In this document: positions 37,092 to 44,517 of the stretch, one piece after another
How the letters are laid out: each line of letters opens with the position of its first letter
Numbering within the stretch: the first letter of the stretch is position 1
Assembly: GCF_009914755.1 (NCBI RefSeq)
Contig: NC_060932.1
Direction: 5' to 3' (one strand)
DNA from: the human T2T-CHM13v2.0 reference genome, Homo sapiens
DNA length: 64,000 bases
Notes under the pieces: generated by a model
Database searches by the model: none
What the model saw: only the letters and a program-made list of their open reading frames with translations
What the model was told of the DNA's origin: nothing
Made by a program: the position numbers and the translations under genes

Positions 37092-37202
37092 TGTGAGATG
37101 GTCAAAGTTGTGTCATCTTGGTTAGGTTATGGTGCACAGTTTGATCAAACACAAGTCCAGATATTGCTGTAAAGGTATATTGTAGATGTGATTTACATTT
37201 AT
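37092..37202 (+). mobile_element. MLT2D-like LTR, 5' part (split by the L1HS insertion)
   Basis: TGTGAGATGG...TGTGTCATCTTGG...TTGATCAAACACAAGTCCAGATATTGCTGT. Confidence 0.8.
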
Positions 37203-37238
37203 TTATTTATTTTTTTTTTAACTTAAATATGTACAATT

Positions 37239-37244
37239 TTTATT
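37239..37244 (-). terminator. AATAAA polyadenylation signal ending the transduction
   Basis: TTTATT on + strand, 19 nt from the second poly(A) tail. Confidence 0.85.
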
Positions 37245-37747
37245 TATCAATCATACTTCAATGAAGCTAGAAAGAAAAATAAGAAAAAAACATTTGTACA
37301 GCATAATTAATTATGAAACGGATACATTTTCTAACAATTATGATATATTTTTCTATGCTTATTTTAGAATATTGTATTGTCATTGGGATTATTGCCACCA
37401 TTTTCTTCTCTGTACCTGTGTTCCTATCTTTATCGCAGTGACCAAATCTCCTCTGATAACACTTAATTTTTGCCCATCTGAAATTATATCTTAAATTCCA
37501 AAAAGTAAATATTTTCTGATTTTTAGGGAAAAATAAGAATTTTTTAGATTTCCTAGGTGACCTCTAGAAAAACTGTGACAATTTTTGCCTTATAAAATGG
37601 ATGAGGCTAAAATAAATTGGGCTTCTTTGGTATGCCCCATATTTCTTCATTAGTTCCACACATCTGTGTGAGTTGCATGAGGTCAATTCTAAAAGACTCA
37701 GCCTTCTCAGTTCATTTTACATAATCTTACATATTAAGATGAATGGT

Positions 37748-38039
37748 GGTGGGGTGCGGTGGCCCACGCCTGTAATCCCAGCACTTTGGGAGGCTGAGGT
37801 GGGCACATCAGGAGGTCAAGAGATTGAGACCATCATGGCCACCATGGTGAAACCCCATCTCTACTAAAAATACAAAAACTAGCTGGGCGTCGTGGTGCAT
37901 GCCTGTAGTCTCATCTATTCAGGAGGCTGAGGCAGGAGAATCACTTGAACCCAGGAGGCAGAGGTTGCAGTGAGCCAAGATCGCACCACTGCACTCCAGC
38001 CTGGTGACACAGGGATACTCTGTCCAAAAAAAAAAAAAA
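37748..38039 (+). mobile_element. AluSc-like element carried inside the transduction, antisense to the L1
   Basis: GAGGTCAAGAGATTGAGACCATC and CAGCCTGGTGACA diagnostics; decayed TSD AGATGAATGGT / AGGTGAATTGT. Confidence 0.93.
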
Positions 38040-38389
38040 CAGGTGAATTGTTTAGGAACTGTAGACATTTAACTCACAGATTAGAGACTGTAATAGGAAA
38101 TTGGAGAGGTATATGCCCCCAGGTGAAACACTGGTCAAGTCTTTATGAGATAGTATTGAACCTAATGCAGAATTTTTTTTTTTTTTTATACTCTAAGTTT
38201 TAGGGTACATGTGCACATTGTGCAGGTTAGTTACATATGTATACATGTGCCATGCTGGTGCACTGCACCCACTAATGTGTCATCTAGCATTAGGTATATC
38301 TCCCAATGCTATCCCTCCCCCCTCCCCCGACCCCACCACAGTCCCCAGAGTGTGATATTCCCCTTCCTGTGTCCATGTGATCTCATTGT

Positions 38390-41300: not shown

Positions 41301-42217
41301 TTGTAGGCATTTAGTGCTATAAATTTCCCTCTACACACTGCTTTGAATGCGTCCCAGAGATTCTGGTATGTGGTGTCTTTGTTCTCGTTGGTTTCAAAGA
41401 ACATCTTTATTTCTGCCTTCATTTCGTTAGGTACCCAGTAGTCATTCAGGAGCAGGTTGTTCAGTTTCCATGTAGTTGAGCGGCTTTGAGTGAGATTCTT
41501 AATCCTGAGTTCTAGTTTGATTGCACTGTGGTCTGAGAGATAGTTTGTTATAATTTCTGTTCTTTTACATTTGCTGAGGAGAGCTTTACTTCCAACTATG
41601 TGGTCAATTTTGGAATAGGTGTGGTGTGGTGCTGAAAAAAATGTATATTCTGTTGATTTGGGGTGGAGAGTTCTGTAGATGTCTATTAGGTCTGCTTGGT
41701 GCAGAGCTGAGTTCAATTCCTGGGTATCCTTGTTGACTTTCTGTCTCGTTGATCTGTCTAATGTTGACAGTGGGGTGTTAAAGTCTCCCATTATTAATGT
41801 GTGGGAGTCTAAGTCTCTTTGTAGGTCACTCAGGACTTGCTTTATGAATCTGGGTGCTCCTGTATTGGGTGCATAAATATTTAGGATAGTTAGCTCCTCT
41901 TGTTGAATTGATCCCTTTACCATTATGTAATGGCCTTCTTTGTCTCTTTTGATCTTTGTTGGTTTAAAGTCTGTTTTATCAGAGACTAGGATTGCAACCC
42001 CTGCCTTTTTTTGTTTTCCATTTGCTTGGTAGATCTTCCTCCATCCTTTTATTTTGAGCCTATGTGTGTCTCTGCACGTGAGATGGGTTTCCTGAATACA
42101 GCACACTGATGGGTCTTGACTCTTTATCCAACTTGCCAGTCTGTGTCTTTTAATTGCAGAATTTAGTCCATTTATATTTAAAGTTAATATTGTTATGTGT
42201 GAATTTGATCCTGTCAT
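38390..42217 (-). pseudogene. ORF2: L1 ORF2 (endonuclease / reverse transcriptase), in frame throughout but with two nonsense codons (Y731*, K1015*)
   Basis: 3828 nt = 1275 codons plus stop; TAG at 40025-40027 and TAA at 39173-39175; EN motifs (IQETH, GDFN, SDH) and FADD present. Confidence 0.97.
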
Positions 42218-42280
42218 TATGATGTTAGCTGGTGATTTTGCTCATTAATTGATGCAGTTTCTTCCTAGTCTCGATGGTCT

Positions 42281-43297
42281 TTACATTTTGGCATGGTTTT
42301 GCAGCGGCTGGTACCGGTTGTTCCTTTCCATGTTTAGCGCTTCCTTCAGGAGCTCTTTTAGGGCAGGCCTGGTGGTGACAAAATCTCTCAGCATTTGCTT
42401 GTCTATAAAGTATTTCATTTCTCCTTCACTTATGAAGCTTAGTTTGGCTGGATATGAAATTCTGGGTTGAAAATTCTTTTCTTTAAGAATGTTGAATATT
42501 GGCCCCCACTCTCTTCTGGCTTGTAGGGTTTCTGCCGAGAGATCCGCTGTTAGTCTGATGGGCTTTCCTTTGAGGGTAACCCGACCTTTCTCTCTGGCTG
42601 CCCTTAACATTTTTTCCTTCATTTCAACTTTGGTGAATCTGACAATTATGTGTCTTGGAGTTGCTCTTCTCGAGGAGTATCTTTGTGGCGTTCTCTGTAT
42701 TTCCTGAATCTGAATGTTGGCCTGCCTTGCTAGATTGGGGAAGTTCTCCTGGATAATATCCTGCAGAGTGTTTTCCAACTTGGTTCCATACTCCACATCA
42801 CTTTCAGGTACACCAATCAGACGTAGATTTGGTCTTTTCACATAGTCCCATATTTCTTGGAGGCTTTGCTCATTTCTTTTTATTCTTTTTTCTCTAAACT
42901 TCCCTTCTCGCTTCATTTCATTCATTTCATCTTCCATTGCTGATACCCTTTCTTCCAGTGGATCGCATCGGCTCCTGAGGCTTCTGCATTCTTCATGTAG
43001 TTCTCGAGCCTTGGTTTTCAGCTCCATCAGCTCCTTTAAGCACTTCTCTGTATTGGTTATTCTAGTTATACATTCTTCTAAATTTTTTTCAAAGTTTTCA
43101 ACTTCTTTGCCTTTGGTTTGAATGTCCTCCCGTAGCTCAGAGTAATTTGATCGTCTGAAGCCTTCTTCTCTCAGCTCGTCAAAATCATTCTCCATCCAGC
43201 TTTGTTCTGTTGCTGGTGAGGAACTGCGTTCCTTTGGAGGAGGAGAGGCGCTCTGCGTTTTAGAGTTTCCAGTTTTTCTGTTCTGTTTTTTCCTCAT
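42281..43297 (-). CDS. ORF1: LINE-1 ORF1p RNA-binding protein, intact 338 aa
   Basis: MRKKQNRKTGNSK...LQNHAKM with REKG, ARR and YPAKLS motifs; 63-nt spacer to ORF2. Confidence 0.97.
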   Translation of the reverse strand: MRKKQNRKTGNSKTQSASPPPKERSSSPATEQSWMENDFDELREEGFRRSNYSELREDIQTKGKEVENFEKNLEECITRITNTEKCLKELMELKTKARELHEECRSLRSRCDPLEERVSAMEDEMNEMKREGKFREKRIKRNEQSLQEIWDYVKRPNLRLIGVPESDVEYGTKLENTLQDIIQENFPNLARQANIQIQEIQRTPQRYSSRRATPRHIIVRFTKVEMKEKMLRAAREKGRVTLKGKPIRLTADLSAETLQARREWGPIFNILKEKNFQPRISYPAKLSFISEGEMKYFIDKQMLRDFVTTRPALKELLKEALNMERNNRYQPLQNHAKM

Positions 43298-44203
43298 CTT
43301 TGTGGTTTTATCTACTTTTGGTCTTTGATGATGGTGATGTACAGATGGGTTTTCGGTGTAGATGTCCTTTCTGGTTGTTAGTTTTCCTTCTAACAGACAG
43401 GACCCTCAGCTGCAGGTCTGTTGGAATACCCTGCCGTGTGAGGTGTCAGTGTGCCCCTGCTGGGGGGTGCCTCCCAGTTAGGCTGCTCGGGGGTCAGGGG
43501 TCAGGGACCCACTTGAGGAGGCAGTCTACCCGTTCTCAGATCTCCAGCTGCGTGCTGGGAGAACCACTGCTCTCTTCAAAGCTGTCAGACAGGGACACTT
43601 AAGTCTGCAGAGGTTACTGCTGTCTTTTTGTTTGTCTGTGCCCTGCCCCCAGAGGTGGAGCCTACAGAGGCAGGCAGGCCTCCTTGAGCTGTGGTGGGCT
43701 CCACCCAGTTGGAGCTTCCCGGCTGCTTTGTTTACCTAAGCAAGCCTGGGCAATGGCGGGCGCCCCTCCCCCAGCCTCGTTGCCGCCTTGCAGTTTGATC
43801 TCAGACTGCTGTGCTAGCAATCAGCGAGATTCCGTGGGCGTAGGACCCTCTGAGCCAGGTGTGGGATATAGTCTCGTGGTGCGCCGTTTCTTAAGCCGGT
43901 CTGAAAAGCGCAATATTCTGGTGGGAGTGACCCGATTTTCCAGGTGCGTCCGTCACCCCTTTCTTTGACTCGGAAAGGGAACTCCCTGACCCCTTGCGCT
44001 TCCCAGGTGAGGCAATGCCTCGCCCTGCTTCGGCTCGCGCACGGTGCGCACACACACTGGCCTGCGCCCACTGTCTGGCACTCCCTAGTGAGAAGAACCC
44101 AGTACCTCAGATGGAAATGCAGAAATCACCCGTCTTCTGCGTCGCTCACGCTGGGAGCTGTAGACCGGAGCTGTTCCTATTCGGCCATCTTGGCTCCTCC
44201 TTC
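43298..44203 (-). promoter_or_regulatory. L1 5' UTR: CpG-rich sense promoter with intact YY1 site, plus antisense promoter
   Basis: Minus strand begins GAAGGAGGAGCCAAGATGGCCG; YY1 core at 44183-44191; only CpG-island-like stretch in the window. Confidence 0.92.
43753..43968 (+). CDS. ORF0: LINE-1 antisense ORF0, intact 71 aa
   Basis: MAGAPPPASLPPCSLISDCC...RCVRHPFL*; splice-donor GT at 43859 and 43944. Confidence 0.88.
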   Translation: MAGAPPPASLPPCSLISDCCASNQRDSVGVGPSEPGVGYSLVVRRFLSRSEKRNILVGVTRFSRCVRHPFL

Positions 44204-44517
44204 TGATTTACATTTATAATCAATTAGGTTTAAGTAAAGGAGAGTGTTCTCCATCATACAGGTGGGTATCATCCATTCATTTAGAGGTCTTTAGAGCAAA
44301 AAAGGTAGTTTTCCTGGAAAAGAAGGAATTCTGCCTCAAGATTTTAATTCTGCCTCAAGAAAAATTGCATGAATTTCTAATGTGCTGGCCCGCTATGTAG
44401 ATTTTGTACTTGCCAGTCTTAACAATTGCAATAATAAATTCCTTAAGAGAAATCTCATTCTTTTTCTATCTTTTTTTTTCTCTTCTCTCTATATTTATGG
44501 AAAGCTTGACTGATACA
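44204..44517 (+). mobile_element. MLT2D-like LTR, 3' part
   Basis: Continues the 37092-37202 piece (TAAGTAAAGGAGA...GAAGGAATTCTGCCTCAAGA); ends TGACTGATACA. Confidence 0.8.

What the first reader, a model, noticed from the sequence alone, without database searches (positions are those of the whole stretch)
37189..44217. Full-length L1HS-Ta with a ~950 bp 3' transduction: one 7 kb insertion with two poly(A) tails
Seen: no TSD next to the L1's own poly(A) (38173-38187). Instead TGATTTACATTTAT occurs at 37189-37202 and 44204-44217, enclosing the L1, ~950 bp of other DNA and a second A-tail preceded by AATAAA. The two flanks rejoin into one continuous MLT2 LTR, and the minus-strand site reads TT/ATAA, close to the L1 endonuclease TT/AAAA consensus. 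Established: this is the signature of 3' transduction by read-through of the weak L1 poly(A) signal. Inference: 37220-38172 was copied from another locus and tags the source element and any siblings. Whether this lineage is already catalogued cannot be told from the window.
Basis: partly seen in the sequence, partly recalled or inferred. Interest (0 to 1): 0.8.

Follow-up and report, generated by a model that had tools for sequence, protein, structure and literature searches.

The report
L1 element carrying copied flanking DNA
This is an ordinary young human L1 jumping gene that carried about 950 bases of neighbouring DNA from its parent locus near a centromere, and that parent copy is missing from this complete genome.

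Summary
A 14-base direct repeat (37189-37202 and 44204-44217) encloses four things. They are a full-length minus-strand L1HS-Ta (38188-44203), its own 15-A tract, 953 bases of foreign DNA (37220-38172), and a second A-rich tail that follows an AATAAA by 19 bases.

The foreign DNA is not single-copy. It belongs to a segmental-duplication family with 10 full-span paralogs in T2T-CHM13 (chr21, 18, 13, 2, 9, 9, 22, 22, 15, 14) and a partial chr10 copy. The closest paralogs are chr21 (8 of 957 bases differ) and chr18 (9 of 957).

Homology stops exactly at the poly(A) site and at the L1 tail. All 10 paralogs are empty there, and 8 of the 10 read TTTT/AT on the nicked strand, an L1-endonuclease-like site. 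CHM13 therefore holds no source L1 and no sibling.

The L1 has an open ORF1 but two in-frame stops in ORF2, and its 3' end lacks AATAAA. A published table lists what is very probably this element in hg19 (chr8:137450324, Ta1-nd, full-length, 12 of 12 cell lines).

Verdict: a textbook 3' transduction, correctly read. Low novelty.

The parts
37189..37202 (.). Target-site duplication, copy at the 3' end of the insertion (L1 sense is the minus strand)
   Evidence: Exact 14-base repeat of 44204-44217; only 2 matches in the window; longest shared word control.
37203..37219 (-). Terminal poly(A) tail of the whole retrocopy (A10 followed by TAAATAA on the minus strand)
   Evidence: Read. Homology to all 10 paralogs ends at 37219/37220.
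37239..37244 (-). AATAAA polyadenylation hexamer used by the read-through transcript, 19 bases upstream of the tail
   Evidence: Read. The block holding the hexamer is identical in all 10 paralogs.
37220..38172 (-). 3'-transduced DNA (953 bases), copied from a paralog of a pericentromeric segmental-duplication family
   Evidence: Collinear with 10 CHM13 paralogs over 37219/37220 to about 38176. Differences over 957 bases: 8 (chr21), 9 (chr18), 12 (chr13), 19 (chr2) and 39-41 for the other six.
37749..38040 (+). Alu element with its own A-tract, inside the transduced DNA and antisense to the L1; part of the parental sequence, not a later insertion
   Evidence: Two sub-threshold Metazoa_SRP matches at 37749-37863 and 37882-38026 on the + strand. 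Present at the same place in all 10 paralogs. The name Alu is recalled from the sequence motif.
38173..38187 (-). The L1's own A-tract (15 A). Its last 4 A could equally be the start of the source element's target site
   Evidence: 8 of the 10 paralogs read AAAA at this position.
38188..44203 (-). Full-length L1HS-Ta body (6016 bases): 5' UTR 43298-44203, ORF1 42281-43297, ORF2 38390-42217, 3' UTR 38188-38389
   Evidence: ORFs. Pfam Transposase_22, Tnp_22_dsRBD, Tnp_22_trimer, Exo_endo_phos and RVT_1. ORF2p differs at 14 of 1273 aligned residues from solved human ORF2p chains. The 5' end lies within 3 bases of where other full-length copies start. The ACA trinucleotide is read.
40025..40027 (-). 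First premature stop in ORF2 (codon 731, in frame)
39173..39175 (-). Second premature stop in ORF2 (codon 1015, in frame)
44204..44217 (.). Target-site duplication, copy at the 5' end of the insertion

Best explanation
This is one retrotransposition event of an L1HS-Ta read-through transcript, a classical 3' transduction. The proposed sequence of events is as follows.

1. A source L1 sat in one paralog of a pericentromeric segmental duplication, of the chr21/chr13/chr18 type. It had inserted at a site that reads TTTT/AT on the nicked strand.
2. Transcription from the L1 promoter ran past the L1's own 3' end, which in this copy has no AATAAA.
3. Transcription continued through 953 bases of flank, including an antisense Alu. 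The RNA was cleaved and polyadenylated 19 bases after a genomic AATAAA.
4. L1 endonuclease nicked chr8 at TTAT/AA inside an old interspersed repeat. The whole RNA was reverse-transcribed from its new tail, which gave a 14-base target-site duplication.
5. After insertion, ORF2 picked up two in-frame stops.

The structure, the parental copies, the exact homology ends and the empty paralogs are shown directly. The existence of the source L1 is inferred, as are its loss or absence from this haplotype and the timing of the stops and of the AATAAA loss.
For: - A single 14-base TSD encloses everything, and there is none around the L1 alone.
- There are two A-tails, and the second lies 19 bases after an AATAAA.
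- The 953-base insert has 10 full-span paralogs in the same genome. They are collinear with one another over 10 kb at 93.3-98.6% identity.
- Homology to the window begins and ends exactly at the poly(A) site and at the L1 tail.
- At the tail junction, 8 of the 10 paralogs read AAT|AAAATTCTG in L1 sense, an L1-endonuclease-type site. The chr22 (16.7 Mb) and chr15 copies differ there.
- The insert falls inside the chr21/chr13/chr18 clade with 99/97 support and has a short end branch of 0.0021.
- The chr8 flanks map collinearly onto 3 of 3 shared copies of one old repeat, with a single copy of the TSD.
- The L1 is young: ACA trinucleotide (criterion from PMC4866827) and 14 of 1273 ORF2p residues different from solved human ORF2p chains.
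- Its 3' end lacks AATAAA, a form found at 29 sites against 826 with the hexamer.
Against: - No source L1 was found. All 10 paralogs in this complete genome are empty. Only the window carries the filled junction, 1 of 9 pattern matches. The 132-base unique part has exactly 11 copies, with 11 of 11 candidates scored.
- No sibling shares the tag.
- No CHM13 paralog is identical to the insert; the best differs at 8 of 957 bases. The insert shares none of the 5 chr21-private changes or the 4 chr18-private changes. So the exact source paralog is not identified.
- Whether the AATAAA loss was already in the source or arose after insertion cannot be told. The same loss recurs independently in Ta, pre-Ta and older copies.
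Confidence: 0.9

Rival explanations
1. Template-switch chimera. Reverse transcription started on a polyadenylated non-L1 transcript from one of the duplicated paralogs, then jumped onto the poly(A) end of an L1 RNA. One insertion with one TSD resulted, and no source L1 ever lay next to the paralog.
For: No paralog in CHM13 carries an L1 at the junction. The junction lies at a run of four A in 8 of the 10 paralogs. Such a run could also serve as microhomology for a jump onto a poly(A) tail.
Against: The junction is also an L1-endonuclease-type site (TTTT/AT), as expected for a former L1 insertion. The L1 part is full-length with a 15-A tract, which fits a genomic L1 tail followed by its target site. 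From general knowledge, not tested here: 3' transduction is common among L1 insertions, and the described chimeras carry the small RNA at the 5' side.
Confidence: 0.06
2. Two separate events: a retrocopy of the 953-base segment inserted first, and an L1 later landed exactly at its 5' edge, or the reverse order.
For: None beyond the presence of two A-tails.
Against: The L1 alone has no TSD; the longest shared word is 5 bases, which is chance level. The single 14-base TSD spans both parts. The flanks rejoin with one TSD copy.
Confidence: 0.02
3. DNA-level transfer: another copy of the pericentromeric segmental duplication landed beside an L1 by duplication or gene conversion.
For: The segment belongs to a family that has spread by duplication to 10 sites.
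Against: Only 953 of at least 10,000 collinear bases are present. They end at a poly(A) addition site 19 bases after AATAAA, followed by an A-tail that no paralog has. The whole unit is bounded by a TSD.
Confidence: 0.02

Closest known systems
L1 3' transduction (read-through of the weak L1 poly(A) signal). Described as common in the human genome and catalogued for T2T-CHM13 in the preprint 10.1101/2021.07.12.451456 (passages read). The original reports are recalled and were not read here.
   Same: One TSD around the L1 plus downstream DNA; two A-tails; a downstream AATAAA; a parental copy elsewhere in the genome.
   Different: The parental DNA is a 10-paralog segmental-duplication family rather than a unique locus. 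No paralog in this complete genome carries the source L1. Whether this event is among the 183 high-confidence L1 3' transductions of that preprint could not be checked. The journal version is not held.
L1 transduction families with a known progenitor, for example the 14-member family traced to a chr11 lineage progenitor (PMC6425141, passages read)
   Same: A transduced tag marks descent from one source element.
   Different: In that family the progenitor and many siblings are present in reference or sampled genomes. Here there is one offspring, no sibling and no progenitor in CHM13.
Reference L1HS at hg19 chr8:137450324, minus strand, listed as 'L1HS|Ta1-nd|full-length' (PMC4866827, supplementary file 3)
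   Same: Same chromosome and strand. Full length, with the 5' cluster 6024 bases from the 3' end. The position is 103,849 bases from the CHM13 coordinate, a plausible assembly offset. It is the only L1-sized masked block in the window. It is very probably the same element; this is an inference, since no hg19 sequence was compared.
   Different: That table places the 3' end at the L1's own A-tract. The row shown for it in file 5 carries no transduction or lineage annotation. It has a euL1db name (mrip8177) and no 'fixed' name, yet it is found in 12 of 12 cell lines.
Template-switch chimeric retrocopies made by the L1 machinery (recalled, not read here)
   Same: Two RNA-derived parts inside one TSD.
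   Different: The order and structure here fit read-through: a full-length L1 at the 5' side, then its genomic A-tract, then contiguous flank starting at an endonuclease-type site.

Membership tests
L1HS-Ta (human-specific LINE-1, Ta subset) | Encodes ORF1p and ORF2p with endonuclease and reverse-transcriptase domains | tested here: met
   Pfam Transposase_22, Tnp_22_dsRBD and Tnp_22_trimer in ORF1; Exo_endo_phos and RVT_1 in ORF2. ORF2p matches solved human ORF2p chains, with 5 of 730, 7 of 283 and 2 of 260 residues different. ORF2 is interrupted by two in-frame stops.
L1HS-Ta (human-specific LINE-1, Ta subset) | Full length of about 6 kb with the canonical 5' start | tested here: met
   The body is 6016 bases, 38188-44203. 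Of 39 other L1 5' ends scored (40 of 1274 candidates), all align to within 3 bases of the TSD. Twenty of them start at query positions 30-34 with 98-99% identity.
L1HS-Ta (human-specific LINE-1, Ta subset) | ACA trinucleotide in the 3' UTR (ACG in pre-Ta, GAG in L1PA2 and older) | tested here: met
   The criterion is quoted from PMC4866827. The minus strand of 38270-38290 reads ACA directly before TTAGTGGG. The hg19 table calls the element Ta1-nd.
L1 3' transduction | One target-site duplication encloses the L1 and the extra DNA; none flanks the L1 alone | tested here: met
   14 bases against 5 bases, with random pairs reaching at most 11.
L1 3' transduction | The extra DNA ends in a poly(A) tail 10-30 bases after a polyadenylation hexamer that is part of the parental DNA | tested here: met
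   AATAAA at 37239-37244 (minus strand), with the tail starting 19 bases later. The hexamer is present in all 10 paralogs, and the tail is absent from all 10.
L1 3' transduction | The extra DNA has a parental copy elsewhere in the genome | tested here: met
   There are 10 full-span paralogs, and the best has 8 of 957 bases different.
L1 3' transduction | The parental copy lies directly 3' of a source L1 (confirmatory rather than defining, since sources can be polymorphic or lost) | tested here: not met
   0 of 10 paralogs in CHM13 carry an L1 at the junction. Other human genomes could not be searched.
L1 3' transduction | Both the chr8 target and the inferred source target look like L1 endonuclease sites (consensus TTTT/AA, recalled) | tested here: met
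   The chr8 site reads TTAT/AA on the nicked strand. The source site reads TTTT/AT in 8 of the 10 paralogs; the chr22 (16.7 Mb) and chr15 copies differ there.

The most novel reading that the evidence does not exclude
The progenitor may still segregate in human populations as an uncatalogued L1 hidden in a chr13/chr21/chr18-type pericentromeric duplication, a region that short reads cannot resolve. It may have lacked its own AATAAA, so that every transcript it made ran on into the flank. The 953-base tag would then be a ready probe for a hidden and possibly still active source element and for its offspring in pangenome assemblies and tumours.
Probability: 0.12. Interest if true: 0.4.

Novelty: already known. 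Interest (0 to 1): 0.22.

Why it matters
It matters little for mechanism, because 3' transduction is textbook and the L1 copy itself is very probably a catalogued reference element. The useful result is a clean worked example. A transduced tag points to a parent locus inside a recently exchanged pericentromeric duplication, and a gap-free genome shows that locus empty in all 10 paralogs. This shows that L1 lineages can descend from sources that are lost, or that are polymorphic in regions only complete assemblies can resolve. It also gives an exact junction to look for in pangenomes.

Tried and rejected
- The bacterial promoter and terminator scan of the tail region says nothing about a human locus.
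- The repeat finder showed only its 20 largest families and did not list the 14-base TSD. A script did the test instead.
- I looked for siblings among the 28 other L1 3' ends that lack AATAAA. None is close: the best full-span match has 9 mismatches of 1215. None runs on into the tag. By the diagnostic trinucleotide they are a mix: 15 ACA, 4 ACG, 2 GAG, 1 TCA and 6 with the motif not found. So the loss is recurrent and is not a lineage mark.
- Literature: 'L1HS' with '8q24.23' gave 0 papers. A search for L1 sources at 18p11.21, 21q11.2, 13q12.11 or 2q21.2 gave 6 papers, none about L1 (listing only). The 2003 survey of related L1s by transduced sequences is not held.
- The table of L1s intact in hg38, CHM1 or CHM13 (PMC10883270, Dataset EV1) does not list this element. 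That fits its broken ORF2.
- PMC9311842 covers non-reference transductions only (passages read).
- The idea that the parental duplication lies in an ANKRD30-type gene family is recalled only.
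Full report
**Observation.**
Allowing one mismatch adds nothing, and 0.13 matches are expected by chance.

Between the two copies, read on the minus strand, lie:
- an L1 that starts at 44203;
- its own tract of 15 A (38173-38187);
- 953 bases of other DNA (38172 down to 37220);
- a second tail that reads A10 then TAAATAA (37219 down to 37203).

An AATAAA lies on the minus strand at 37239-37244, 19 bases before that second tail.

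A script compared the ends. The stretch beside the L1's own A-tract and the L1's 5' flank share at most 5 bases. The two ends of the whole unit share 14 bases. In 2000 random pairs of 64-base stretches, none shared more than 11, apart from one 62-base pair. So the L1 alone has no target-site duplication (TSD), and the whole unit has one.

**The L1.**
- *Reading frames.* The minus strand holds a 338-codon ORF1 (42281-43297) and a 1275-codon ORF2 frame (38390-42217). The ORF2 frame is interrupted by two in-frame stops, at codons 731 (40025-40027) and 1015 (39173-39175), and has no frameshift.
- *Domains.* Pfam finds the three L1 ORF1 domains, and the endonuclease and reverse-transcriptase domains in ORF2.
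- *Divergence.* Against solved human ORF2p chains, the three open pieces differ at 5 of 730, 7 of 283 and 2 of 260 residues. ORF1p residues 106-329 differ at 8 positions from chain 2yko_A, and some of those may be engineered in the crystal construct.
- *5' end.* A 180-base query spanning the 5' junction found 39 other L1 5' ends (40 of 1274 candidates scored). All of them align to within 3 bases of the TSD. Twenty start at query positions 30-34 with 98-99% identity. The other 19 run on into the flank, with 94-98% identity. The element is therefore full-length.
- *Subfamily.* It carries the ACA trinucleotide that PMC4866827 gives as the Ta signature (text passage; sequence).
- *3' end.* The A-tract follows GAGTAT directly, so the 3' end has no AATAAA. 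This form occurs at 29 sites in the genome, against 826 sites with the hexamer.

**Origin of the extra DNA.**
- *Copies.* The first 521 bases have 10 full-span matches elsewhere in T2T-CHM13, plus a partial 90% copy on chr10 (41 matches; 40 of 103 candidates scored). The other 28 matches cover only the first 70 or so bases at 79-93% identity, which is an old repeat end. The 132-base unique part next to the L1 has exactly 11 copies, namely the window and the same 10 loci, with all 11 candidates scored.
- *Fetched loci.* I fetched 10 kb around each locus. The 10 loci are collinear with the chr21 locus over the whole 10 kb at 93.3-98.6% identity, so they form a segmental-duplication family.
- *Ends of homology.* Their match to the window covers 37219 to about 38190 and nothing else of the insertion. 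There is no match to the L1 body except weak 68-72% hits from old L1 fragments. In the multiple alignment, homology stops exactly at the poly(A) addition site on one side. On the other side it stops at the L1 tail.
- *Empty sites.* In L1 sense, 8 of the 10 paralogs read AAT|AAAATTCTGCATTAGG at that point, and the chr22 (16.7 Mb) and chr15 copies differ by further bases. All 10 go on into unrelated duplicated sequence, so all 10 are empty sites. The eight that read AAAA present TTTT/AT on the nicked strand.
- *Filled junction.* A pattern search for the filled junction, with up to one mismatch, found 9 places. Only the window is filled, and the 8 others show the empty reading. CHM13 therefore contains neither the source L1 nor any sibling that carries this tag.

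**Which paralog.**
- *Distances.* Over 957 aligned bases the insert differs at 8 sites from chr21 (11.37 Mb), 9 from chr18 (15.5 Mb), 12 from chr13 (17.6 Mb), 19 from chr2 (132.6 Mb) and 39-41 from the other six.
- *Tree.* A maximum-likelihood tree puts the insert in a clade with chr21, chr13 and chr18 (support 99/97), with an end branch of 0.0021.
- *Shared and private sites.* The insert shares five derived sites with all three of those paralogs, two with chr21 and chr13, and one with chr13 alone. It has two private bases (37435, 38131). It shares none of the 5 chr21-private changes or the 4 chr18-private changes.
- *Conclusion.* The source was a paralog of this clade, but it is not identical to any CHM13 copy. 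It may have been a fourth copy, or an older or different haplotype. With two private changes in 957 bases, the age is only loosely bounded. A few million years is compatible, which is an inference.

**Target site.**
Each chr8 flank matches many copies of one old interspersed repeat at 67-85% identity (40 scored of 152 and of 166 candidates). Three loci appear in both lists: chr6:17.14 Mb, chr2:31.82 Mb and chr6:33.29 Mb. In all three, the end of the left-flank match and the start of the right-flank match fall on the same bases and overlap by one TSD length. The flanks therefore rejoin into one uninterrupted repeat with a single copy of the 14-base word. The nicked strand at the target reads TTAT/AA. 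The name MLT2 could not be tested.

**Inside the tag.**
Two sub-threshold SRP-RNA matches on the + strand (37749-37863 and 37882-38026) mark a dimeric Alu with its own A-tract. It is present in all 10 paralogs, so it was carried along and did not insert later.

**Explanation.**
The whole unit is one retrocopy of a read-through L1 transcript.
- *Shown:* the structure, the parental family, the exact ends of homology and the empty paralogs.
- *Inferred:* that an L1 once sat at the junction in one paralog, that it is absent from this haplotype or lost, and that the ORF2 stops arose after insertion.

Whether the missing AATAAA was already in the source cannot be told. It would explain obligatory read-through. 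However, the same loss is seen in 28 other L1 3' ends. By the diagnostic trinucleotide these are 15 ACA, 4 ACG, 2 GAG, 1 TCA and 6 with the motif not found. None is closer than 9 mismatches in 1215 bases, and none runs on into the tag. So the loss is recurrent.

**Rivals.**
- A template-switch chimera cannot be fully excluded without a filled source allele. The endonuclease-type junction and the general frequency of transduction argue against it.
- Two separate insertions are contradicted by the TSD pattern.
- DNA-level duplication is contradicted by the poly(A) end and the TSD.

**What is known.**
- PMC4866827, supplementary file 3, lists a reference element at hg19 chr8:137450324 on the minus strand, as 'L1HS|Ta1-nd|full-length'. 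Its 5' cluster lies 6024 bases away. It has a euL1db name (mrip8177) and no 'fixed' name, and it was detected in 12 of 12 cell lines. The row shown for it in file 5 has no transduction or lineage entry.
- The CHM13 position of the L1 3' end is chr8:137,554,173, which is 103,849 bases away from the hg19 coordinate. I take it to be the same element by inference.
- The T2T repeat preprint reports 183 high-confidence L1 3' transductions in CHM13 (passages). Its table could not be read, and the journal version is not held. So I cannot say whether this event is listed.
- Searches for the locus or for a source at the paralog cytobands found nothing relevant.
- The listing for PMC8198063 (title and start of abstract only) concerns rearrangements between the chr18 centromere and the centromeric or pericentromeric regions of acrocentric chromosomes. 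The chr18, chr13 and chr21 loci of this family lie in such regions.

**Verdict.**
The event is ordinary in kind, and the L1 copy is very probably a catalogued reference element. The modest additions are these: the parental DNA is a duplicated pericentromeric family, a complete genome lacks the progenitor and any sibling, and the element is dead with no poly(A) hexamer of its own.

Noticed in passing
L013/L014 (chr9:42.5 Mb and chr9:77.4 Mb) and L017/L018 (chr22:15.8 Mb and chr14:12.8 Mb): Within the duplication family, two pairs of paralogs differ by only 1 of 957 bases over the tag region. Both pairs are about 4% from the other copies. This points to very recent duplication or gene conversion, across the chr9 centromere block and between the chr14 and chr22 short-arm sides.
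   Followed up: no
Genome-wide; window 38180-38205: L1 3' ends in which the A-tract follows GAGTAT directly, with no AATAAA, occur at 29 sites, against 826 with the hexamer. The other 28 are spread over Ta, pre-Ta and older copies, and most have long pure A-tails. Whether such copies transduce more often was not tested.
   Followed up: partly
window 37880-38007: Sub-threshold Rfam matches to mir-1268 (32 bits, gathering score 83) and mir-3135 (44.9 bits, gathering score 80) lie inside the Alu. They are most likely just Alu-derived similarity.
   Followed up: no
window 36900-37080: An AT-rich stretch with GATA-like low-complexity sequence lies just left of the old repeat that received the insertion.
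   Followed up: no
window 42284-43297 (ORF1): ORF1p differs from PDB chain 2yko_A at 8 of 224 compared residues, proportionally more than ORF2p (14 of 1273). Some of these differences may be engineered in the crystal construct.
   Followed up: no
hg19 chr8:137450324 (PMC4866827, supplementary file 3): The element has a euL1db polymorphism name (mrip8177) and is not in the paper's list of fixed L1s, yet it was detected in 12 of 12 cell lines. Its population frequency is unsettled.
   Followed up: partly
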